The position numbers and the translations under genes are program-made. Shown one piece after another: positions 18,384 to 36,784 of a DNA stretch of 64,000 bases. The notes below the pieces were generated by a model. The model worked only from the letters and a program-made list of their open reading frames with translations. It had not been told where the DNA came from and did not search any database. Each line of letters opens with the position of its first letter. Position 1 is the first letter of the stretch. Source of the stretch: an uncultured Chloroflexia bacterium (lineage in GTDB: Bacteria > Chloroflexota > Limnocylindria > Limnocylindrales > CSP1-4); contig CAVVYR010000006.1 of the NCBI GenBank assembly GCA_963752475.1, forward strand, positions 320,001-384,000, in the 5' to 3' direction.

Positions 18384-19361
18384 AGGTGGCAGGCCACCTC
18401 GTGGCCACCATCGAGCTCGACCAGCGGCGGGATCTCGCGCTCACACGTGCCCGCGATGGCGGCCGGACAGCGGGGCGCGAAGGCGCAGCCGATGGGCAGG
18501 TCACCGGCATCGGGTGGCTCGCCGCCGACCACCGGACGCTGGCGTAGCCGGTTCTGTGGATCGGCCTCGGGCACCGCGGCCAGTAGCGCCTGCGTGTAGG
18601 GGTGCCGAGCGTCCTCGATGAGGGCCTCGGCCGGCGCCAGCTCCACGATGCGCCCCGCGTACATGACCGCGATGCGGTCGGCGAAGTGACGGGCGCTCGC
18701 GAGGTCATGGGTGATGTAGAGGAAGGTCAGGTCGCGCTGCGCCTGCAGCTCCTTGAGCAGGTACAGGATCTCCGCTCGGCTTGAGGCGTCGATCATCGAC
18801 ACCGGTTCGTCGGCCACGAGGTAGTCGGGCTCGAGCACCATCGCGCGCGCGATCGAGACGCGTTGCCGCTGGCCGCCCGAGAGCGTGTGCGGGTACTTGT
18901 CGGCGAACTCGGTGGCCGGCCTGAGCTTGACCTGCTCGAGGGCCTCGATGACCGCGGCATCCTGCTCCGAGCGGTCCGAAGGGCCGTGGATGACGAGCGG
19001 CTCAGCCACCAGGTCACCGACGCGCATGTACGGGCTGAGGCTGGAGAACGGGTCCTGGAAGATGGCCTGCGCTCGCCGGCGGAACGAGAGCATGGCCGCT
19101 CCCTCGAGCCCGGCGATGTCCTCGCCCTCGAAGACGACCTGGCCGTCACTGGCATCGACGAGGCGGAGGGTGGCGCGCCCCAACGTCGTCTTGCCGCTGC
19201 CGGACTCGCCCACGACGGCCACCGTCTCGCCCATGGCCAGGTCGAGCGAGACGTCGGTGACAGCGGCGATGGGCCGCTCGCTGAAGAACGACTTGCGCAC
19301 GTAGAAGCGCACCGACAGTCCTTCGATGCGCAGCACCGGCCCGTCCTCGGCCGTCCACTCG
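18272..19361 (-). CDS. Oligopeptide ABC ATP-binding protein (OppF/DppF-like), native start removed at the IS junction
   Basis: GESGSGKT, LSGGQRQR, DEP, HPYT, C-terminal Cys cluster. Confidence 0.9.
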
Positions 19362-20418
19362 GGCGACGGCCCGGTGGTCGAGGCCCTGCTCGACGCCGGG
19401 CTGACCGTCGTCGTCATCAGCCCCAACCAGCTCAAGGGCCTCCGTTCGCGCTACGGCTCGGCCGGCAACAAGGACGACCGCTTCGACGCCTTCGTGCTCG
19501 CCGACACCCTGCGCACCGACCGGGCCCGGCTTCGCCCGCTGACCCAGGACACCGAGGCCACGCGGACCCTGCGCGCCACCGTGCGGGCCCGTCGCGACCT
19601 GGTCAGGCACCGCGTCGCGGTGTGCAACCAGCTTCGCGCCCACCTGCAGGCCACCTTCCCCGGCGTGGTCGGCCTGTTCGCAGAGCTGGACTCGCCGATC
19701 AGCCTGGCCTTCCTGGCCCGCTTCGACTCCCAGGCACGTGCCGACTGGCTCTCCCCCGGGCGGCTGGCGGCCTGGCTGGCCAGCGTCGGCTACAGCGGCC
19801 GCAAGGACCCCGCCGACCTCCATGCCCGACTGCAGGCCGCACCCCGGGGCCCGGTCGGACCCGACGGTGCCGCCCGGGCCCATGTCACCCGCGCCCTGCT
19901 CAGCGTGCTCGACGGCCTGGTCGAGCAGATCGGGACCCTCGAGGCGCAGATCACCGAGCAGCTCGCCCTTCACGCCGACGCCCACATCTTCCGGTCCCTG
20001 CCCCGCAGCGGCACCGTCCGCGCCGCCCGGCTGCTCGCCGAGATCGGCGACGTCCGCGCCCGCTTCCCCGACGCCGCCTCCCTGGCCTGCCTGGCCGGCG
20101 TCGCGCCCTCGACCAGACAGTCCGGCAAGCACCGAGCCGTCACGTTCCGATGGGCGGTCGACAAGGAGCTCCGCGACGCGGTCTGCGACTTCGCCGGCGA
20201 CTCCCGACGCGCCAACCCCTGGGCCGCGAAGATCTACGACGACGCCATCGCCCGGGGCAAGGACCACCCCCACGCGACCCGCATCCTGGCCCGTGCCTGG
20301 CTCGGCGCGATCTGGCGCTGCTGGCAGGATGACGCCGCCTACGAACCCGCCCGACACCACGCCCTCCAGGCCATGCAGGACACCGCCATGGCGGCCCAGG
20401 GTTGACAAGGGCTACTCA
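19362..20418 (+). mobile_element. 5'-truncated IS110 copy (lacks left end, bridge RNA and the start of the RuvC domain)
   Basis: Near-identical to 33564-34621 (I counted 4 substitutions and a 1-bp deletion by eye); ends in the CTCA core at the oppD stop. Confidence 0.95.
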
Positions 20419-21390
20419 TGCCGGCTCCTCTGGGTCGCGCCGGCGGTCGAGCCGCCAGCAGCGCGCGTGGTGGCCGGTCCCGACCTCGATGTAGGGCGGC
20501 GGTTCGCCACATCGTTCGTAGACCAGCGGACAGCGGGCGGCGAAGCGACAGCCACTGATGGGATCGCGCAGGTCCGGCGGCGCGCCGGGCAGGAAGTCGG
20601 GTGGCTCGGGGTCGTGCAGGCTGGGGATGCTCGCGAGCAGGCGCTGCGTGTAGGGGTCGGCTGGCGCCTCCAGCACGCGCTCGGCGGAGCCCAGCTCGCG
20701 CACCTGCCCGGCGTAGACCACGGCGATCGCGTCGCACAGGTCCGACGCCAGCGCCAGGTCGTGGGTGATGAAGAGCATCGAGATACGCCGCTCGGACTTG
20801 AGCTCCTTGAGCAGGTTCATGATCTGCGCCTGGATGCTCACATCGAGCGCGCTGGTGGGTTCGTCCAGGATGAGCAGCGGCGGATCGTGCGTCAGCGCCG
20901 AGGCGATCATCACGCGCTGCTTCATGCCGCCCGAGAGCTCGTGGGGGTAGCGATCGGCCACGGACACCGGTAGGCCCACGCGCGCGATCAATCCTTCGAC
21001 GCGGGTCCGCACGTCGGCCTTGCCCATGCCGTCCGAGCGCAGCCGCTCACCGACCTGGTCCCCCACGCGGATGACCGGGTTGAGCGAGTGCATCGCGCCC
21101 TGGAAGACCATAGCCATGCGGCTCCAGCGGATGTGCTTGCGGAAGGCCTCGTCATCGAGCTCGGTCAGCTCTTCGCCATCGAGCCGCACCGAGCCGCCGA
21201 CGAGCGTGCCGTTGCGCGGCAGCAGGCGCATGAGCGCGGTGGCCATGCTGGTCTTGCCCGAGCCCGATTCGCCGATGATGCCCAGGGCCTCGCCCTCGGC
21301 CAGGTCGAAGGAGATACCGTCCACCGCGCGCAGGGGGCCTCGCTCGGTGGAGTACTCGAGCGCCAGGTCGCGGGCTTCGAGGAGGGCCAC
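20416..21390 (-). CDS. Oligopeptide ABC ATP-binding protein (OppD/DppD-like)
   Basis: GESGSGKT, LSGGMKQR, DEPTSALD; TAGTG overlap with the permease. Confidence 0.92.
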   Translation of the reverse strand: MALLEARDLALEYSTERGPLRAVDGISFDLAEGEALGIIGESGSGKTSMATALMRLLPRNGTLVGGSVRLDGEELTELDDEAFRKHIRWSRMAMVFQGAMHSLNPVIRVGDQVGERLRSDGMGKADVRTRVEGLIARVGLPVSVADRYPHELSGGMKQRVMIASALTHDPPLLILDEPTSALDVSIQAQIMNLLKELKSERRISMLFITHDLALASDLCDAIAVVYAGQVRELGSAERVLEAPADPYTQRLLASIPSLHDPEPPDFLPGAPPDLRDPISGCRFAARCPLVYERCGEPPPYIEVGTGHHARCWRLDRRRDPEEPA

Positions 21391-31142: not shown

Positions 31143-32015
31143 ATGAACTCCTGGCGAGCCGGCCTGTGGGCCATGCTGCTGCCGTACCTGCTGGGCACGC
31201 TCGTGCTGGTGGGTCTGCCGGCGCTGATGTCCGGGGTCCTCGCGTTCACGACCTACGACGCGCTGACGCCGCCGGTCTACGTCGGCTTCGCCAACTTCCG
31301 CCTCCTCGCGGCCGACCCCATCGTGGGCCAGGCCTTGGCCAACTCGCTCTTCTTCATCCTGCTGGCGGTGCCGCTGCGCATCGTCGGTGCCTTGGGCCTG
31401 GCCCTGCTGCTCCGCCGACCGCGTCGCGGCGGCGGTGCCTATCGAGCGGCGGTGTACGTGCCCACGGTCATCCCGGAGGTGGCCTTCGCGCTCATCTGGC
31501 TGTGGATCTTCAATCCGGTCTTCGGGCCGGTCAACGTGGCGCTCGAGGCGCTGGGGTTGCCCACGCCCGGCTGGCTGGCCGACGCCGATACCGCGCGGTT
31601 CCCGTTCGTGATCATGGCCGCCTTCGTCATCGGGGAGGGCTTCGTGGTGCTGCTGGCCGCGCTACGCGGGCTCTCGCAGGAGGTCTACGACGCGGGCGCG
31701 GTCGATGGCGCCGGCCGCTGGGCGGCGTTCCGCTACCTGACGTTCCCGCTGCTGCTGCCTTGGCTGGCGCTGCTCACCGCCCGTGACGTCGTGCTCAGCT
31801 TCCAGTGGACCTTCACACCCTCGTTCGTGATGACCGGTGGCGACCCCTACTACGCCACCATGTTCCTGCCGCTGCTGACGTACGAGGAGGCCTTCGACCG
31901 CTTCCGCTTCGGCGCGGGCTCAGCGCTGATGCTGCTGACGTTCCTGCTGTCGGTGGCCATCATCGGCGGCATCTACCTGCTCTTCCGCCGCCGCGGCTAC
32001 GTGGCCGATGTCTGA
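31143..32015 (+). CDS. Sugar ABC permease
   Basis: VGFANF, EVYDAGAVDGA EAA loop. Confidence 0.9.
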   Translation: MNSWRAGLWAMLLPYLLGTLVLVGLPALMSGVLAFTTYDALTPPVYVGFANFRLLAADPIVGQALANSLFFILLAVPLRIVGALGLALLLRRPRRGGGAYRAAVYVPTVIPEVAFALIWLWIFNPVFGPVNVALEALGLPTPGWLADADTARFPFVIMAAFVIGEGFVVLLAALRGLSQEVYDAGAVDGAGRWAAFRYLTFPLLLPWLALLTARDVVLSFQWTFTPSFVMTGGDPYYATMFLPLLTYEEAFDRFRFGAGSALMLLTFLLSVAIIGGIYLLFRRRGYVADV

Positions 32016-32829
32016 GCGCCGCGGCTGGCTGGGCCGCCATCTGGCCCCGATGGTCGTGGCCGTGATCTTCCTGCTGCCGCTGCTGTGGATGGTCACGACC
32101 TCGCTGCGCGGTCCCGGGCTGGCGCCACCCTCGACGGTCGAGTGGGTGCCGCCGCAGGCCACGGTCGGCAACTACGGCTCGGTCTTCGAGCTGCTGCCCT
32201 TCGGGCGCTATCTGCTCAACTCGCTCGTGGTGGTGGCGCTGGCGGTGCCGCTCACCATCGTCACGGCCTCGATGGCCGGCTTCGCCATGGCCCTGCTGGA
32301 GCGGCGGGTGAGGGGAGCGCTGCTGGTGCTCTCGGTGGCGTTGCTGCTGGTGCCGGTGACCGCGCTGTGGCTGACGCGCTTCCTGCTCTTCAACTGGGTC
32401 GGGCTGACCGACACGTTGGCCGCGCTGGTGGTCCCGGCGCTGGCGGGATCGAGCCCGCTGTTCGTGCTCATCTACTACTGGACCTTCCGTCGCGCGTCGG
32501 CCGAGGTCTTCGAGATGGCCCACCTCGACGGGGCGGGACCGCTGGGTGTCTGGCGCCGCATCGCCATGCCCAACGCCTGGCCCTCGACGGTGGCGGTGGC
32601 GGTACTGACGTTCATCCTCTACTGGAGCGACTTCATCAGCCCGCTGCTGTACCTGCGCGATCAGGACCTCTACACGCTGCCTCTGGGTCTACGACAGCTC
32701 CAGCAGCTCGACCCCACCGGCTGGCCGCTGCTGATGGCCGGCGCGGTCATGCTCACGCTGCCGGCGGTGCTCTTCTTCCTCGTCGTGGGGCGGCTCTTCC
32801 TCGGCGAGCGAGGTCTGGGTCGGGAGTAG
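32008..32829 (+). CDS. Sugar ABC permease
   Basis: EMAHLDGA EAA loop, WSDFISPL, TLPLGL. Confidence 0.9.
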   Translation: MSERRGWLGRHLAPMVVAVIFLLPLLWMVTTSLRGPGLAPPSTVEWVPPQATVGNYGSVFELLPFGRYLLNSLVVVALAVPLTIVTASMAGFAMALLERRVRGALLVLSVALLLVPVTALWLTRFLLFNWVGLTDTLAALVVPALAGSSPLFVLIYYWTFRRASAEVFEMAHLDGAGPLGVWRRIAMPNAWPSTVAVAVLTFILYWSDFISPLLYLRDQDLYTLPLGLRQLQQLDPTGWPLLMAGAVMLTLPAVLFFLVVGRLFLGERGLGRE

Positions 32830-33069
32830 TCAGGCCGCTTCGTAGGTCGCGAGGACGGTGCCTACCACCGCGTCCGCGCCGGCCTCGACGAGGATCTCGG
32901 TCAGGCGTCCCGCGGCCGGCATCTCCAGGTCGACGTTGGCCTTCTCGGTCTCGATCTCGGCGATGACCTCACCCTCCATGACCGTGTCGCCGACAGCCTT
33001 GAGCCAGGCGCTCACGCGGGCTTCATCGGTCTCGGCACCGAGGTTGGGCATCTTGATGGGGAGGCTCAC
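32830..33069 (-). CDS. Stand-alone lipoyl-domain protein (79 aa); GTG start created by the IS end
   Basis: IKMPNLG...W....GD.V..GE...EIETEKA lipoyl-Lys motif. Confidence 0.9.
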   Translation of the reverse strand: MSLPIKMPNLGAETDEARVSAWLKAVGDTVMEGEVIAEIETEKANVDLEMPAAGRLTEILVEAGADAVVGTVLATYEAA

Positions 33070-34622
33070 TGGTGCACCCTCTTCCTGTCGGTAGTCGCAG
33101 ATCGACTGCCGATGCACCCGAGGTGCCGTCGGGTCACTGCCCCGCTCGCTCGAACCTTCGAGGTCCAGCATGAGTTCCGCAGGGCCCGGCGGTCATCCGG
33201 GACGCCGTGACCGTCGACAGGGCTGTGCGCCATGGCCATCACCGGCCGGGAGCGCCGATCAGTGAGCTGACAGGCAGATGCGTCCCGGCACCGAGATGCG
33301 GGTGCCTCCCCACTGGGATCAGCAGCGAGGAGGCTGACATGCAGTCTGCCAGTATCACCCCGAGTCGGGGCTCGTCCGACCAGCCCGTCAGCGTCGCCGT
33401 CACCGGTGGCGTGGACTGGGCCAGCGCCGATCATGCCGTGGCCGTCGTCGACGACGATGGCCGCCAGCTCGCCCGCGAGCGCGTCGAGCACACCGCCGCG
33501 GGCCTGCGGGCGATGGTGCGGTTCCTGGCCGATCATGGCGTGGCCGAGGTCGCCATCGAGCGTGGCGACGGCCCGGTGGTCGAGGCCCTGCTCGACGCCG
33601 GGCTGACCGTCGTCGTCATCAGCCCCAACCAGCTCAAGGGCCTCCGTTCGCGCTACGGCTCGGCCGGCAACAAGGACGACCGCTTCGACGCCTTCGTGCT
33701 CGCCGACACCCTGCGCACCGACCGGGCCCGGCTTCGCCCGCTGACCCAGGACACCGAGGCCACGCGGACCCTGCGCGCCACCGTGCGGGCCCGTCGCGAC
33801 CTGGTCAGGCACCGCGTCGCGGTGTGCAACCAGCTTCGCGCCCACCTGCAGGCCACCTTCCCCGGCGTGGTCGGCCTGTTCGCAGAGCTGGACTCGCCGA
33901 TCAGCCTGGCCTTCCTGGCCCGCTTCGACTCCCAGGCACGTGCCGACTGGCTCTCCCCCGGGCGGCTGGCGGCCTGGCTGGCCAGCGTCGGCTACAGCGG
34001 CCGCAAGGACCCCGCCGACCTCCATGCCCGACTGCAGGCCGCACCCCGGGGCCCGGTCGGACCCGACGGTGCCGCCCGGGCCCATGTCACCCGCGCCCTG
34101 CTCAGCGTGCTCGACGGCCTGGTCGAGCAGATCGGGACCCTCGAGGCGCAGATCACCGAGCAGCTCGCCCTTCACGCCGACGCCCACATCTTCCGGTCCC
34201 TGCCCCGGAGCGGCACCGTCCGCGCCGCCCGGCTGCTCGCCGAGATCGGCGACGTCCGCGCCCGCTTCCCCGACGCCGCCTCCCTGGCCTGCCTGGCCGG
34301 CGTCGCGCCCTCGACCAGACAGTCCGGCAAGCACCGAGCCGTCACGTTCCGCTGGGCGGTCGACAAGGAGCTCCGCGACGCGGTCTGCGACTTCGCCGGC
34401 GACTCCCGACGCGCCAACCCCTGGGCCGCGAAGATCTATGACGACGCCATCGCCCGGGGCAAGGACCACCCCCACGCGACCCGCATCCTGGCCCGTGCCT
34501 GGCTCGGCGTGATCTGGCGCTGCTGGCAGGATGACGCCGCCTACGAACCCGCCCGACACCACGCCCTCCAGGCCATGCAGGACACCGCCATGGCGGCCCA
34601 GGGTTGACACAGGGCTACTCAT
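33066..34622 (-). CDS. Element-spanning antisense ORF (518 aa), Hed-like; putative translational-coupling relay
   Basis: Begins at the host ATG overlapping the upstream TGA and ends at a TGA overlapping the downstream GTG. Protein function unsupported. Confidence 0.45.
   Translation of the reverse strand: MSSPVSTLGRHGGVLHGLEGVVSGGFVGGVILPAAPDHAEPGTGQDAGRVGVVLAPGDGVVIDLRGPGVGASGVAGEVADRVAELLVDRPAERDGSVLAGLSGRGRDAGQAGQGGGVGEAGADVADLGEQPGGADGAAPGQGPEDVGVGVKGELLGDLRLEGPDLLDQAVEHAEQGAGDMGPGGTVGSDRAPGCGLQSGMEVGGVLAAAVADAGQPGRQPPGGEPVGTCLGVEAGQEGQADRRVQLCEQADHAGEGGLQVGAKLVAHRDAVPDQVATGPHGGAQGPRGLGVLGQRAKPGPVGAQGVGEHEGVEAVVLVAGRAVARTEALELVGADDDDGQPGVEQGLDHRAVATLDGDLGHAMIGQEPHHRPQARGGVLDALAGELAAIVVDDGHGMIGAGPVHATGDGDADGLVGRAPTRGDTGRLHVSLLAADPSGEAPASRCRDASACQLTDRRSRPVMAMAHSPVDGHGVPDDRRALRNSCWTSKVRASGAVTRRHLGCIGSRSATTDRKRVHQ
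33095..33320 (+). ncRNA. Putative IS110 bridge RNA (boundaries approximate)
   Basis: Non-coding left end with two internal loops whose strands match target (CTCGCTC, GCATGAG) and donor (ACAGGGCT, CAGTGAG) sequences. Confidence 0.7.
33339..34607 (+). CDS. IS110-family DEDD transposase/recombinase
   Basis: GVDWA, AIE, KDDRFDA (RuvC-like DEDD), AGVAPSTRQSG catalytic Ser; GAGGAGG RBS. Confidence 0.95.
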   Translation: MQSASITPSRGSSDQPVSVAVTGGVDWASADHAVAVVDDDGRQLARERVEHTAAGLRAMVRFLADHGVAEVAIERGDGPVVEALLDAGLTVVVISPNQLKGLRSRYGSAGNKDDRFDAFVLADTLRTDRARLRPLTQDTEATRTLRATVRARRDLVRHRVAVCNQLRAHLQATFPGVVGLFAELDSPISLAFLARFDSQARADWLSPGRLAAWLASVGYSGRKDPADLHARLQAAPRGPVGPDGAARAHVTRALLSVLDGLVEQIGTLEAQITEQLALHADAHIFRSLPRSGTVRAARLLAEIGDVRARFPDAASLACLAGVAPSTRQSGKHRAVTFRWAVDKELRDAVCDFAGDSRRANPWAAKIYDDAIARGKDHPHATRILARAWLGVIWRCWQDDAAYEPARHHALQAMQDTAMAAQG

Positions 34623-36784
34623 GCGTCGTCCTTTCCGGCCGCGGTCATGATGGCGGCCTCGATGTCGGCGTCCTGGATGTGCACGAAGTCCTCGAGCGGC
34701 TTGCTCACCGGCGAGTAGGCATCGAGGCCGGTCACGCGCAAGGGCGCGCTGCGCAGGAGCGCGTGCAGGTCGGGCTGCAGGTAGTCCAGGATGCGCCCGC
34801 CCATCGAGAGCGTGCGCTGGGCATCCTCGGCGATGACGAGCGCCCCCGTGCGAGCGACCGAATCCAGCACGGCCGCGCGCGGGAAGCTGGGCTCGTCGAG
34901 CCAGCGCGGGTCGAGGACCTCGGCTTCGACGCCGCGGTCGGCCAGCGTGGCGGTCACCTCTGCCACACGCGTGGCCGCGTAGCCCCAGGTCAGGACGGTC
35001 ACATCGCGCCCTGATCGCACCAGGCGTGCCTTCCCGAACTCGACCACGTGGTCGAAGCCGGCGCCCGGGAGCACACCCGTGATCTTGGCCAGGCGATGGT
35101 CGTCGATGATGAGCACCGGGTCACGACTGAGCACGGCCGCGTTCCAGCAGCCGACGTAGTCGGCCGGGGTCGTGGGTGCGGCCACGCGCCAGCCGGGATA
35201 GGACGTGAACAGGCCGGCCGGGTCGCAGGAGTGCTGCGGTCCGTAGCCGCGCCCCCGGGCGATCTGCGTGCGCGCGATGACGGGCACCTCGTGGTCGCCG
35301 CCATACATGTAGCGGCTCTTGGCGATGTGGTTGAAGAGCTGGTCGGTGGCCTCGAGTACGAAGTCGGGGTACATGAACTCGATGATCGGATGCATGCCCG
35401 CGAGCGCCGCTCCGAGGGCTGCGCCACTGAAGCCGTTCTCGCAGATGGGCGTCGAGAGGAGCTGCTGCGGGCGCGAGGCCACGGCTGACCGGGTCATGCC
35501 CACCGTGCCGCCGCCGAGGTGGCCGACCTCCTCGCCCAGGTAGATGGCCTCTGGGTCACGCTCGAGCGTGCGACCGATGACGCCCTGCGCGGCCTCGGCG
35601 TAGGTGACCGGCGCAGCCTCAGGGTCCGGCGTCGCGTCGAGGCGCTCGTAAGGGAGGTCCGGGAGGCCCGGGCCGAGCATGCCGCGATGGGCGTCCTCGA
35701 CCGGCGGGTAGAGCTCGGGCGGGATGGCTGGTCCGTCGTCGGTCTCGACCGTCAGTGCCGCCACGCAGCGGGCCACGAGCGCGTTGGCCAGGCCCTGCAC
35801 GTGCTGCACTTGCTCGGCACTGAGCAGCTCGGCTTCGATCACGCCGCGAGGCCAGGCGACCGCCGGGTCGCGATCCTTCCACTCGCGCTCCTCGTCCTTG
35901 CTGCGGTACTTGAAGGCCGAGCCGGGGAGGGGACCGTTCTGGTGGTAGTAGCGGTAGGTCACGGCTTCGACGAAGACCGGCCCGTGGGTGACCGCATGCT
36001 CGCGTGCTTGTGCCATCGCCTCGTATACCGCCACCGGGTCCATGCCGTCGACCACGAGCGCGGGCATGTCGTAGCCCGCGGCGCGCTTGGCCAGGCGCGT
36101 GAAGCCGGCCGTCTCCTGCACCGTGGTAGCGACCGAGTACTGGTTGTTCTCCAGCAGCAGGATGAGCGGCAGATCCCAGGCCCGCGCCAGTGCCGCCGCT
36201 TCGTGGAAGGCACCGATCTGGCTGGCACCGTCGCCGAACGAAGCCACGCCCACGTCACCCGTCCCGCGCAGCTTCGAGGCCAGGGCATAGCCGCCGGCGG
36301 GCGGGATGCCACCACCCACGATAGCCGTGGTCATGACACCGCCTTCGCGGTCCCACAGGTGCATCGAGCCGCCGCGGCCGTGGCAGAGCCCTTGTTCGAG
36401 GCCCATGATCTCGGCCATCGTGCGCTGCACGGGTTCGGCCATGGCCTCGGTCACCGTCTCGGCCGTGAAGGGGTCGAAGTCATCCGGGGTAGCCGAGAGC
36501 AGCAGCTTGGCCACCACGTCGTGATGGGCGCGATGGGTCGAGGTCAGCCAGTCACTCGGGCGCAAGGCCAGTGCCGCGCCCGTGGCCGTGGCCTCCTGGC
36601 CGATGCTCGAGTGCAGCGGTCCGTGCACCAGGCCCGCGTTGTCGAGCAGCCACTTCTCGAAGCGACGGATGGTCCCGATGCTGAGGATGGCCAGCCCCAG
36701 GCGGCGCTTGGGCGTGCCGGCGAGCACGTCCGTGGACAGCTCGTAGCGGGTGAGGCCGGGCGTCGTCGTCGGCTCTGCGGTCAT
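34619..36784 (-). CDS. Fused alpha/beta ThDP-dependent 2-oxoacid/acetoin dehydrogenase E1
   Basis: HSSIGQEA, GRGGSMH, GDG...ENN, STPICE, GPQHS. Confidence 0.92.
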   Translation of the reverse strand: MTAEPTTTPGLTRYELSTDVLAGTPKRRLGLAILSIGTIRRFEKWLLDNAGLVHGPLHSSIGQEATATGAALALRPSDWLTSTHRAHHDVVAKLLLSATPDDFDPFTAETVTEAMAEPVQRTMAEIMGLEQGLCHGRGGSMHLWDREGGVMTTAIVGGGIPPAGGYALASKLRGTGDVGVASFGDGASQIGAFHEAAALARAWDLPLILLLENNQYSVATTVQETAGFTRLAKRAAGYDMPALVVDGMDPVAVYEAMAQAREHAVTHGPVFVEAVTYRYYHQNGPLPGSAFKYRSKDEEREWKDRDPAVAWPRGVIEAELLSAEQVQHVQGLANALVARCVAALTVETDDGPAIPPELYPPVEDAHRGMLGPGLPDLPYERLDATPDPEAAPVTYAEAAQGVIGRTLERDPEAIYLGEEVGHLGGGTVGMTRSAVASRPQQLLSTPICENGFSGAALGAALAGMHPIIEFMYPDFVLEATDQLFNHIAKSRYMYGGDHEVPVIARTQIARGRGYGPQHSCDPAGLFTSYPGWRVAAPTTPADYVGCWNAAVLSRDPVLIIDDHRLAKITGVLPGAGFDHVVEFGKARLVRSGRDVTVLTWGYAATRVAEVTATLADRGVEAEVLDPRWLDEPSFPRAAVLDSVARTGALVIAEDAQRTLSMGGRILDYLQPDLHALLRSAPLRVTGLDAYSPVSKPLEDFVHIQDADIEAAIMTAAGKDDA

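What the first reader, a model, noticed from the sequence alone, without database searches (positions are those of the whole stretch)
33095..33320. Readable bridge RNA whose target loop spells the GCATGAG stop/start overlap
Seen, loop 1: CTGC stem, then ccgCTCGCTCga, hairpin ACCT-tcg-AGGT, ccaGCATGAGttcc, GCAG stem. GCATGAG (33168-33174) is the reverse complement of CTCATGC, present at both insertion sites. CTCGCTC matches the reconstructed left flank of site 1 (ccaCTCG-CTCA). Loop 2 carries ACAGGGCT (33217-33224), identical to the IS right end (34609-34616), and CAGTGAG (33260-33266), the reverse complement of core plus left end (CTCACTG). Known: IS110 (IS621) bridge RNAs have target- and donor-binding loops with this architecture. 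Inference: a naturally programmed recombinase aimed at a gene-architecture feature rather than a repeat; a candidate new bridge system. The left donor guide does not abut the core perfectly, and site 2's left flank matches only GCTC.
Basis: partly seen in the sequence, partly recalled or inferred. Interest (0 to 1): 0.78.

Follow-up and report, generated by a model that had tools for sequence, protein, structure and literature searches.

The report
IS110 bridge RNA aimed at start codons
This is a genuine guide ("bridge") RNA of an ordinary IS110-family jumping gene, and its target loop spells a gene start codon that overlaps the previous gene's stop, so the element slots itself between neighbouring genes of an operon.

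Summary
Window 33067-34617 is an IS110-family insertion sequence. Its recombinase (33339-34607) meets NCBIfam's "IS110 family RNA-guided transposase" model. Its 272-nt left end encodes a two-loop bridge RNA.

- **Structure:** across 66 homologous left ends, 98.8% of cells in 52 proposed base pairs are paired, and 32 pairs show compensatory changes.
- **Right target guide (GCATGAG):** it matches all three insertion sites in this genome. In homologues it tracks the right flank in 53 of 61 distinct cases, over 18 guide types.
- **Other guides:** the right donor guide, left donor guide and two one-base "handshake" positions also fit the IS621 rules.
- **Left target guide:** recognition here is weak. 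Only G, and often CG, before the CT core is shared. Eight variant guides do follow their flanks.

This is a new member of a known kind, not a new system.

An open antisense frame spans the whole element. It starts at the host ATG and ends at a junction TGA that overlaps a recreated GTG. It is kept in 43 of 49 homologues and resembles IS900's hed.

The parts
33065..33066 (+). Left copy of the CT core (target side of the left junction)
   Evidence: An empty site in a same-genus relative reads ...GGGTGTG-CT-CATGCGTCG (L089). The occupied site reads ...G-CT-CACTGG... on the left and ...GGGCTA-CT-CATGC on the right.
33067..34617 (+). IS110-family insertion sequence, 1551 bp between the two CT cores, with a 272-nt left end and a 10-nt right end
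   Evidence: Boundaries come from comparing three insertion sites and two empty sites. A second copy, 100% identical, lies at G000:C6:35715-37275.
33075..33080 (+). Possible -10 hexamer (CACCCT; CACCAT in most homologues) of a promoter formed only in the excised circle
   Evidence: Inference only. It would lie 18 nt after the right-end TTGACA once the ends are joined. IS621 reconstitutes a promoter across RE-LE (passages). No sigma-70-like promoter was found in the linear form.
33087..33113 (+). 5' stem-loop of the bridge RNA
   Evidence: Helix 1 has 10 pairs, 8 of them with changes on both sides, and 98.8% of cells paired.
33114..33119 (+). 5' strand of the long-range closing stem (GCACCC), pairing with 33300-33305
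   Evidence: Helix 2 has 6 pairs, and A-U changes to G-C in 7 sequences.
33125..33140 (+).
   Evidence: Helix 3 has 15 pairs, 9 with changes on both sides, and 99.5% of cells paired.
33142..33150 (+). Left target guide, CCGCTCG plus core CU
   Evidence: It equals the top strand of the left target plus core, as in the IS621 rule. It matches site 1 (CCACTCG) at 6 of 7 positions. The two intact copies match only 1-2 bases next to the core. Eight homologues with variant guides follow their own flanks: summed contiguous match 27, against a random mean of 12.6 and a maximum of 24.
33152..33165 (+). Hairpin capping the target-binding loop
   Evidence: Helix 4 has 4 pairs, 3 with changes on both sides.
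33168..33174 (+). Right target guide GCATGAG, the reverse complement of core CT plus CATGC
   Evidence: It matches 7 of 7 at all three sites of this genome. In homologues it matches 7 of 7 in 53 of 61 distinct guide/flank pairs, over 18 guide types.
33175..33175 (+). Handshake base of the target loop (U), complementary to the last base of the right end (A at 34617)
   Evidence: It is complementary in 59 of 61 distinct pairs (T/A 41, A/T 17, G/C 1), against a shuffled mean of 34 and a maximum of 46. The rule comes from IS621 (passages).
33197..33213 (+). 5' strand of the donor-binding-loop stem (33197-33205 and 33211-33213), pairing with 33272-33274 and 33280-33288
   Evidence: Helices 5 and 6 have 12 pairs, 9 with changes on both sides.
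33217..33224 (+). Left donor guide ACAGGGCU, identical to right-end bases 34609-34616
   Evidence: The C-to-T variant (ATAGGGCT) occurs in both guide and right end in 3 of 3 loci (L030, L057, L078). The guide ends one base before the core, so its register differs from IS621.
33227..33255 (+). Hairpin capping the donor-binding loop
   Evidence: Helix 7 has 5 pairs, and C-G changes to U-A in 4 sequences. Its length varies from 11 to 48 nt among homologues.
33260..33266 (+). Right donor guide CAGUGAG, the reverse complement of core CT plus CACTG (left-end start)
   Evidence: L031 has CAATGAG together with a left end that starts CATTGG.
33267..33267 (+). Handshake base of the donor loop (C), complementary to the G that precedes the core in the target
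   Evidence: G at left-target position -1 in 42 of 42 consensus-guide loci, and C is invariant in alignment A1. The rule comes from IS621.
33300..33305 (+). 3' strand of the closing stem (GGGUGC), the approximate 3' limit of the bridge RNA
33339..34607 (+). Recombinase gene (422 aa), with RBS GAGGAGG at 33328-33334
   Evidence: Pfam DEDD_Tnp_IS110 (2e-36) and Transposase_20 (1.2e-18). NCBIfam NF033542 'IS110 family RNA-guided transposase', 180.3 bits against a cut-off of 140. D26, E74, D114, D117 and S329 align with IS621 D11, E60, D102, D105 and S241.
34603..34608 (+). TTGACA in the right end, overlapping the recombinase stop codon; a likely -35 box of the circle-junction promoter
   Evidence: It is conserved in the right ends of the homologues. 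Its function is inferred from IS621.
34618..34624 (+). Right CT core plus right target CATGC. On the minus strand this reads GCATGAG: the stop of the E1 gene overlapping the ATG of the lipoyl-protein gene
33066..34622 (-). Antisense open frame of 518 codons spanning the whole element. It starts at the host ATG (34622-34620) and stops at TGA (33068-33066), which overlaps a recreated GTG (33069-33067) in frame with the host lipoyl-protein gene
   Evidence: It is open and in frame in 43 of 49 homologous elements. In the left end alone there are 3 stops in this frame, against 116 and 115 in the other antisense frames, over 56 distinct left ends. 17 of 21 left-end length classes are multiples of 3. 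There is no Pfam or NCBIfam match.
19362..20414 (+). 5'-truncated copy of the same element, lacking the bridge RNA and the first ~220 nt of the recombinase gene, followed by CTCATGC at 20415-20421
   Evidence: It lies between two Opp/Dpp-type ABC ATPase genes. Its left flank CCACTCG is the best left-target match in this genome.

Best explanation
Window 33067-34617 is an IS110-group insertion sequence. Its left end encodes a bridge RNA of about 220 nt (about 33086-33305).

**Layout of the RNA**
- A 5' stem-loop.
- A closing stem.
- A target-binding loop. Its 5' strand is the left target guide CCGCUCG-CU. Its 3' strand is the right target guide GCAUG-AG plus one handshake base.
- A donor-binding loop. 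Its 5' strand is the left donor guide ACAGGGCU. Its 3' strand is the right donor guide CAGUG-AG plus one handshake base.

**Proposed mechanism (inferred by homology with IS621)**
1. The DEDD/Ser recombinase excises the element as a circle.
2. The circle junction ...ACAGGGCTA-CT-CACTGG... is held by the donor loop.
3. A target ...G-CT-CATGC is held by the target loop.
4. Strands are exchanged at the CT core.

**How recognition differs here**
Recognition is dominated by the right side: 7 bases, always matched. The left side contributes little more than G, or CG, before the core.

**What the target is**
Read on the other strand, the target is GC-ATG-AGC. That is a start codon followed by a Ser codon, and the start codon overlaps a TGA. 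In operons, therefore, the element lands at stop/start overlaps, always antisense to the host genes.

**Shown here**
- The sequences and their coordinates.
- The RNA fold, by covariation.
- Guide/flank covariation.
- The empty sites.
- The catalytic residues.
- Two identical copies at different sites.

**Inferred, not shown**
- That the RNA is made.
- The circle-junction promoter.
- The chemistry of strand exchange.
For: **Protein**
- Pfam PF01548 and PF02371 match.
- NCBIfam NF033542, an equivalog model, scores above its cut-off.
- The only PDB relative is the IS621 transposase. All five catalytic residues align with it.

**Copies and sites**
- There are two 100%-identical full copies and one truncated copy, in three different operons.
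- Empty sites in relatives give ...G-CT-CATGC with no further duplication.

**RNA fold**
- 66 left ends were aligned.
- In 52 curated pairs, 98.8% of cells are paired. Controls slid by 1-3 columns give 35-41%.
- 32 pairs change on both sides. None of 500 shuffles reaches the observed values.
- RNAalifold independently finds the same outer stems.

**Guides**
- Right target guide: 7 of 7 in 53 of 61 distinct pairs, over 18 guide types. The variable bases are perfect in 54 of 61, against a shuffled mean of 9.
- Target-loop handshake base: complementary in 59 of 61.
- Donor-loop handshake base C faces a G that is invariant at left-target position -1.
- Left donor guide: the variant ATAGGG is matched in 3 of 3 loci. 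Right donor guide: the variant CAATGAG is matched in 1 of 1.
- Left target guide: eight variant guides track their flanks, and none of 5000 random draws reaches the observed match.
- The guide rules are taken from passages of PMC11208160 and PMC11208158.

**Position of the RNA**
- The left end is 272 nt and the right end 10 nt, as expected for the IS110 group.
Against: - **Expression:** there is no direct evidence that the RNA is expressed in this organism. RNA-library contigs of near relatives cover 33064-33378 and 33123-33362, but such libraries can carry DNA.
- **Promoter:** no sigma-70-like promoter is found in the integrated form. The junction promoter is an inference, and its -10 (CACCCT) is poor.
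- **Left target guide:** at the two intact copies it matches only 1-2 bases next to the core. In 42 consensus-guide homologues the contiguous match is 1-2 bases in 36. Left-side guidance is therefore weak or dispensable.
- **Left donor guide:** it does not include the core, unlike IS621.
- **Thermodynamics:** the single-sequence fold is only modestly better than shuffles (z -2.2; 4 of 200 shuffles fold as well).
- **Rfam:** release 15 gives no match in 32000-36000.
Confidence: 0.9

Rival explanations
1. The choice of stop/start overlaps is not programmed. The RNA simply specifies the 8-mer GCTCATGC. Copies survive only where insertion does little harm, that is, between genes, so the three operon-junction sites reflect survivorship.
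For: 339 unoccupied GCTCATGC sites exist in the genome, and only 69 pass a crude ORF/ORF overlap test. Most 8-mer matches therefore lie elsewhere. Among homologues with both flanks available, 17 of 37 pass the same test.
Against: - 51 of 61 distinct guide/flank pairs (12 of 18 guide types) spell ATGAG or GTGAG, although the four variable bases could be anything.
- The orientation is always antisense to the host genes.
- A conserved antisense frame uses exactly this start codon.

These three points suggest the clade is adapted to start codons.
Confidence: 0.3
2. The conserved left end is not an RNA gene. It is conserved because it encodes part of the antisense protein, or because it holds recombinase-binding sites. 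The guide matches are then side effects of terminal repeats.
For: The antisense frame is under clear constraint in the left end: 3 stops against 116 and 115. There is no Rfam hit. No expression data exist for this organism.
Against: - Compensatory changes occur in 32 of 52 pairs, with 98.8% pairing. Protein coding does not produce these.
- The right target guide tracks flanking host DNA that is not part of the element.
- The recombinase belongs to the family in which RNA guidance has been shown experimentally.
Confidence: 0.03
3. The element in this genome is a relic that no longer moves. The bridge RNA is readable but not in use.
For: One of the three copies is truncated and has lost the RNA. 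The integrated copies lack a recognisable promoter. The genome is 88.8% complete, so the copy number is uncertain.
Against: Two full copies are 100% identical over 1561 bases at unrelated sites. The recombinase frame and all five catalytic residues are intact. All helices are intact in the window copy.
Confidence: 0.12

Closest known systems
IS621 (Escherichia coli) bridge RNA and recombinase, IS110 group
   Same: - DEDD RuvC-like plus Ser 'Tnp' recombinase, with catalytic residues aligned.
- RNA encoded in a long left end.
- A 5' stem-loop followed by a target loop and a donor loop.
- Left guides equal the top strand and right guides are the reverse complement, each ending at a CT core.
- One-base handshake positions directly 3' of both right guides.
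   Different: - Only distant in sequence (E 1.9e-8, two short stretches).
- The RNA is about 220 nt rather than 177 nt and has an extra closing stem.
- The right target guide is 7 nt and always matched, while the left target guide is nearly unused. IS621 uses a 9-base left guide and a 4-base right guide.
- The left donor guide ends one base before the core instead of covering it.
- The target is a start codon / stop overlap, not a REP element.
IS900 of Mycobacterium avium subsp. paratuberculosis, with its 'hed' (host-expression-dependent) ORF
   Same: - An IS110-family element of an actinobacterium.
- An ORF on the strand opposite the transposase spans the whole element and has no RBS or start codon of its own (passage in PMC8141618).
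- The title of Doran et al. 1997, seen in that paper's reference list, says that IS900 targets translation initiation signals.
   Different: - Not compared at sequence level here.
- From recall only: IS900 is said to insert between the RBS and the ATG. This element inserts inside the ATGA, so the host ATG itself becomes the first codon, and a GTG is recreated for the displaced host gene.
- No bridge RNA reading of IS900 turned up in my searches.
IS1111 group / seekRNA-type elements
   Same: The same recombinase superfamily and the same RNA-guided logic.
   Different: Those elements carry the RNA in a long right end and have subterminal inverted repeats of 7-17 bp. Here the right end is 10 nt and the RNA lies in the left end.

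Membership tests
IS110-family bridge recombinase system (IS110 group) | Recombinase with an N-terminal DEDD RuvC-like domain and a C-terminal Tnp domain carrying the catalytic Ser | tested here: met
   PF01548 at 2e-36 and PF02371 at 1.2e-18. NF033542 at 180.3 bits against a cut-off of 140. D26, E74, D114, D117 and S329 align with IS621 D11, E60, D102, D105 and S241.
IS110-family bridge recombinase system (IS110 group) | Long non-coding left end upstream of the recombinase gene and a short right end | tested here: met
   The left end is 33067-33338 (272 nt) and the right end is 34608-34617 (10 nt).
IS110-family bridge recombinase system (IS110 group) | Structured RNA with two internal loops, supported by covariation | tested here: met
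   7 helices, 52 pairs, 98.8% paired, 32 pairs with changes on both sides, and none of 500 shuffles reaching the observed values. RNAalifold agrees.
IS110-family bridge recombinase system (IS110 group) | Right target guide is the reverse complement of core plus right target, and covaries with it | tested here: met
   53 of 61 distinct pairs match 7 of 7, over 18 guide types. 3 of 3 sites in this genome match.
IS110-family bridge recombinase system (IS110 group) | Left target guide equals the top strand of left target plus core, and covaries with it | tested here: inconclusive
   It is in register and abuts the core. Eight variant guides follow their flanks (27 against a random 12.6), and site 1 matches 6 of 7. 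But 36 of 42 consensus-guide loci match only 1-2 bases.
IS110-family bridge recombinase system (IS110 group) | Donor loop: left guide equals right end plus core; right guide is the reverse complement of core plus left end | tested here: inconclusive
   The right donor guide is met: 7 of 7 including the core, with one covarying variant. The left donor guide matches 8 of 8 in the right end, with 3 of 3 covarying variants. However, it ends one base before the core and does not cover it.
IS110-family bridge recombinase system (IS110 group) | Element flanked by a short identical core (CT) with no other target duplication | tested here: met
   Empty sites L089 and L099 compared with the occupied sites.
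IS110-family bridge recombinase system (IS110 group) | Handshake guides: the base 3' of each right guide pairs with the non-cognate DNA's position 7 | tested here: met
   Target loop: 59 of 61. Donor loop: C faces an invariant G at left-target position -1.
IS110-family bridge recombinase system (IS110 group) | RNA expressed from a promoter rebuilt across the joined ends of the circle | not testable with these tools
   Only indirect hints. TTGACA is conserved in the right end, and CACCCT would lie 18 nt downstream after joining. There is no promoter in the linear form. RNA-library contigs cover the left end but do not prove transcription.
IS110-family bridge recombinase system (IS110 group) | RNA-dependent, reprogrammable recombination | not testable with these tools
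   This needs a bench assay.
IS900-type element with a host-expression-dependent (hed) antisense ORF | ORF on the complementary strand spanning the whole element, without its own start codon or RBS, completed by the target site | tested here: met
   33066..34622 (-), 518 codons, with the ATG supplied by the host gene and the stop at the left junction. It is kept in 43 of 49 homologues, with stop depletion and frame-preserving lengths. The definition is from a passage in PMC8141618.
IS900-type element with a host-expression-dependent (hed) antisense ORF | The antisense ORF is translated | not testable with these tools
   No proteomic or ribosome-profiling data are available. There are no family matches. 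Only 27 database proteins resemble it.
IS1111 group (RNA in the right end) | Long right end carrying the RNA, and subterminal inverted repeats of 7-17 bp | tested here: not met
   The right end is 10 nt and the RNA is in the left end.

The most novel reading that the evidence does not exclude
The clade is built to enter operons as an antisense, translationally coupled cistron.

- The bridge RNA's right target guide is set to (A/G)TGAG.
- The host start codon therefore launches an open frame that runs through the whole element, including the bridge-RNA gene, which would then be read in two ways.
- That frame stops at the TGA formed by the core plus CA at the left junction.
- That stop overlaps a GTG supplied by the first bases of the left end. 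The GTG restores the displaced host gene with its N-terminus unchanged (GTG AGC ... in place of ATG AGC ...).

The frame may exist to keep ribosomes on the message, and so avoid polarity on downstream genes, rather than to make a useful protein. This would link the 1997 'hed' observation for IS900 to the bridge-RNA mechanism and extend it to a large actinobacterial clade.
Probability: 0.45. Interest if true: 0.7.

Novelty: new member of a known kind. Interest (0 to 1): 0.45.

Why it matters
**For bridge-recombinase work**
- This is a natural, high-GC orthologue whose specificity sits almost wholly in a 7-nt right target guide, with a nearly idle left guide. That is the reverse of IS621.
- It gives a ready set of about 60 homologues with 18 natural reprogrammings of that guide.

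**For mobile-element biology**
- It gives a base-pairing explanation for why some actinobacterial IS110 elements sit at translation starts in one orientation only.
- It points to a conserved antisense frame overlapping the guide-RNA gene.

**For annotation**
- Three operons here are interrupted in a way that may leave the downstream genes translatable: E1/lipoyl protein, ABC ATPase/permease, and two Opp/Dpp-type ATPases.

Tried and rejected
**Alternative core position.** I considered a model in which the core is the CT inside GGG-CT of the right end, which would make the target ...CT-ACTCATGC. The empty site L089 reads GTG-CT-CATGC, with no extra ACT. Right ends with GGGCAA also lack that CT (L029, L067, L075). 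Rejected.

**Alternative left-guide register.** Pairing the first GCUC of the loop with G-CT-C was tried. The base before it does not follow the flank. Not supported.

**Rfam.** Nothing relevant in 32000-36000; the only match is a snoRNA at E 0.36.

**Promoter and terminator scan.** The integrated element gave 0 sites.

**RNA libraries.** Of the 11 runs listed, four were laid on the stretch, from two studies. They gave contigs over parts of the element only. Such contigs cannot show transcription, ends or strand, and parts without cover mean nothing.

**Antisense ORF families.** No Pfam or NCBIfam family matches it. The database search found 27 proteins, none with an informative name.

**Truncated copy.** I looked for a recombinase-type or microhomology explanation of the deletion and found none that fits the junction. 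It remains unexplained.

**Anchor regexes.** My first regexes for measuring left-end segments failed. I replaced them with alignment-based measures.

**Literature.** Three searches were run.
- 'bridge RNA' + 'start codon' + 'IS110': 6 papers held, 5 listed. I opened one of them (10.64898/2026.03.19.712850), and it uses 'start codon' in another sense.
- 'IS900' + 'hed' + 'translation initiation': 3 papers, none on bridge RNA.
- 'IS110 family' + 'complementary strand' + 'open reading frame' + 'Streptomyces': 0 papers.

Supplementary tables of PMC11208160, which catalogue natural IS110 targets and guides, were not available. They may already list this clade.

**What I saw of each paper.**
- PMC11208160 and PMC11208158: passages only.
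- PMC8141618: passages.
- 10.64898/2026.08.31.748434: abstract and outline.
- 10.64898/2026.03.19.712850: passages.
- Doran et al. 1997: title in a reference list only. What I say about IS900's exact insertion point is recalled.


Full report
**What is there.** The window is G000:C6:320001-384000. Between 33067 and 34617 lies a 1551-bp element with three parts:
- a 272-nt non-coding left end;
- a 422-codon gene (33339-34607) preceded by GAGGAGG;
- a right end of only 10 nt.

The protein carries Pfam DEDD_Tnp_IS110 and Transposase_20. It scores 180.3 bits against the cut-off of 140 of NCBIfam NF033542, 'IS110 family RNA-guided transposase'. Its only relative among solved structures is the IS621 transposase (E 1.9e-8). 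D26, E74, D114, D117 and S329 align with the residues named as catalytic for IS621: D11, E60, D102, D105 and S241.

**Copies and insertion sites.** The genome holds three copies of the element:
- the window copy;
- a 100%-identical full copy at C6:35715-37275, outside the window;
- a 5'-truncated copy at window 19362-20414.

The junctions read ...G-CT-CACTGG on the left and ...ACAGGGCTA-CT-CATGC on the right. A same-genus genome has the first site empty, as GATGGGTGTG-CT-CATGCGTCG (L089). The target is therefore ...G-CT-CATGC, and the element is bounded by one CT core on each side, with no other duplication.

For the truncated copy, the orthologous empty site reads GTCCA-GCTG-CTCATGC (L099). 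The window has GTCCA-CTCG and then the deletion. It also shows that the deletion starts exactly at the boundary between the left target and the core.

All three copies lie antisense to the host genes, inside an ATGA stop/start overlap between two operon genes:
- E1 dehydrogenase and a lipoyl-domain protein;
- a DrrA-like ABC ATPase and an ABC-2 permease;
- two Opp/Dpp-type ATPases.

**Homologues.** A scan of one genome per species found 456 stretches that encode relatives. The best 80 were fetched, at 67-93% protein identity. The left end is recognisably conserved from its first bases in 78 of the 80.

**RNA structure.** I aligned 66 distinct left ends. RNAalifold predicts:
- a 5' stem-loop;
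- a six-pair closing stem (33114-33119 with 33300-33305);
- two long stems that each enclose an internal loop capped by a hairpin.

I curated this structure by replacing the mispredicted inner pairs of the donor loop with the GCGC/GCGC hairpin. On the curated structure:
- 52 pairs are 98.8% paired, against 35-41% when partners are slid by 1-3 columns;
- 32 pairs change on both sides (261 cells);
- none of 500 shuffles reaches any of the observed measures.

It covaries (C-G 36, U-A 19, U-G 11 at one pair).

The single-sequence fold is only modestly better than shuffles (z -2.2). Rfam 15 has no matching family.

**The guide rules.** For IS621, each left guide equals the top strand of the left half-site plus core. 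Each right guide is the reverse complement of core plus the right half-site (passages).

**Right target guide.**
- 66 loci had a readable right junction. I dropped L028 (gap in the guide) and L037 and L038 (my anchor picked a wrong end). This left 63 rows and 61 distinct guide/flank pairs.
- 53 of the 61 match 7 of 7, 7 match 6 of 7, and 1 matches fewer.
- There are 18 guide types.
- The four variable bases are perfect in 54 of 61, against a shuffled mean of 9.0 and a maximum of 17.

**Right donor guide.** CAGUGAG fits core plus CACTG. The one locus with CAATGAG has a left end that begins CATTGG.

**Left donor guide.** ACAGGGCU equals the right end. The variant ATAGGGCT occurs in both guide and right end in 3 of 3 loci. 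Other right-end variants are not mirrored (L031, L061, L029).

**Handshake bases.** IS621 has 'handshake' bases directly 3' of each right guide. They pair with position 7 of the other DNA after strand exchange (passages). The same holds here.
- The base after the right target guide complements the last base of the right end in 59 of 61 pairs, against a shuffled mean of 34.
- The invariant C after the right donor guide complements the invariant G before the target core.

**Where it departs from IS621.** The left target guide, CCGCUCG-CU in this copy, is almost invariant in the clade. The left flanks, however, are diverse.
- In 42 loci with the consensus guide, position -1 is G in 42 and position -2 is C in 22. 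Further positions show no preference.
- Eight loci with other guides do match their own flanks next to the core. The summed contiguous match is 27, against a random mean of 12.6 and a maximum of 24 in 5000 draws.
- Site 1 of this genome matches 6 of 7.

So the guide is real, but most insertions tolerate a left mismatch. A preprint reports 'half-match' insertions for IS621 (abstract), which may be related. I did not test this.

The left donor guide ends one base before the core instead of covering it. I cannot tell whether it pairs as a contiguous 8-mer or skips three DNA bases to reach the core.

**Is the target a gene-architecture feature?** On the host-gene strand the target reads GC-ATG-AGC.
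- The genome (68% G+C) has 339 unoccupied GCTCATGC sites. Of these, 69 have a long ORF ending at the TGA and another starting at the ATG, by a crude test.
- 18 unoccupied sites match the left guide better (CTCGCTCATGC) than the two intact copies do.
- The RNA alone therefore does not single out overlaps. Selection against insertions inside genes must contribute.
- Even so, 51 of 61 distinct guide/flank pairs in the clade spell ATGAG or GTGAG. And 17 of 37 homologues with both flanks pass the same overlap test.

**The antisense frame.** The minus strand holds a 518-codon open frame, 33066..34622.
- It begins with the host ATG in the right flank.
- It runs through the recombinase gene, codon-aligned, and through the whole bridge-RNA region.
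- It stops at TGA, formed by the core's T plus CA at the left junction.
- That TGA overlaps a GTG (33069-33067, from the left end's first bases CAC) in frame with the displaced host gene. ATG AGC CTC... becomes GTG AGC CTC....

Codon-aligned antisense frames are often open in high-GC genes. The left end, however, is not recombinase-coding, and three results speak for selection:
- In 56 distinct left ends this frame has 3 stops. The other two antisense frames have 116 and 115, and the sense frames have 139-162.
- The distance from the left-end start to recombinase residue 22 takes 21 different values (267-366 nt). 17 of them, covering 55 of 60 loci, are multiples of three.
- The full frame, from host start codon to junction TGA, is intact in 43 of 49 elements.

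The frame has no family match. Only 27 database proteins resemble it, and some are fused to host domains.

An ORF of this kind, 'hed', is described for IS900. It spans the element on the complementary strand without its own RBS or start codon (passage). A 1997 title cited there says IS900 targets translation initiation signals.

My searches found no paper that links this to bridge RNAs. The supplements of the 2024 paper were not available to me.

**Expression.**
- No promoter is seen in the integrated form.
- The right end carries a TTGACA that is conserved across the homologues and overlaps the recombinase stop codon. After circle formation, CACCCT (CACCAT in most homologues) would lie 18 nt downstream. 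A start about 7 nt further on would fall at the foot of the 5' stem-loop.
- This mirrors the junction promoter described for IS621 (passages), but here it is inference.
- Contigs from four environmental RNA libraries (two studies) cover the left end of close relatives, for example 33064-33378 and 33123-33362. Such libraries can hold DNA.

**Verdict.** The finding is real and correctly read. It is a new member of the known IS110 bridge-RNA kind with three features worth recording:
- target recognition dominated by the right side;
- a shifted left donor guide;
- a conserved antisense frame that explains why the guide spells a start codon.

Noticed in passing
window 33066-34622 (-): A 518-codon antisense open frame spans the whole IS, including the bridge-RNA gene. 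It starts at the host ATG and stops at the left-junction TGA, which overlaps a recreated GTG for the host gene. It is conserved in 43 of 49 homologues and has frame-preserving left-end lengths.
   Followed up: yes
window 19355-19370: The deletion that truncated the oldest-looking copy begins exactly at the boundary between the left target and the CT core, and ends inside the recombinase gene (equivalent to about 33561). No microhomology or recombinase-type junction explains it.
   Followed up: partly
L044, L047, L059, L065-L067, L071, L072, L075, L084, L085: A sub-branch has guides such as CTCTGAG, CTCCGAG or CTCTTAG. Its right flanks are near-identical (CTCAGAGGCGGGCA...) at several loci of the same genomes, and its left end extends further upstream than my alignment. 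It looks as if it targets a repeated sequence rather than start codons.
   Followed up: no
window 33170 (also 33134, 33184, 33196): RNA-library contigs from three runs of one study carry A>C at 33170, inside the right target guide. A close relative in the environment would then be set to CTCAGGC instead of CTCATGC.
   Followed up: no
L006 (CAWDAI010000014.1): The closest homologue has 93% protein identity and identical guides. It sits in a genome bin labelled Chloroflexia, while nearly all the others are Actinomycetota. This is either transfer across phyla or a binning or labelling issue.
   Followed up: no
P0003, P0004, P0006, P0008: Some database proteins join the antisense frame of related elements to host domains (methyltransferase, DUF222, TPR, enoyl-CoA hydratase). 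This suggests insertions where the frame is continuous with a host gene.
   Followed up: no
L037, right end: The right end carries a tandem duplication of the CTTGACACAGGGC motif, that is, the -35-like box plus the left donor sequence.
   Followed up: no
window 33300-33311: GGGTGCCTCCCC, directly after the donor loop, is almost invariant in 66 left ends. Its first six bases form the closing stem. The conserved CCUCCCC tail, upstream of the recombinase RBS, is unexplained.
   Followed up: no
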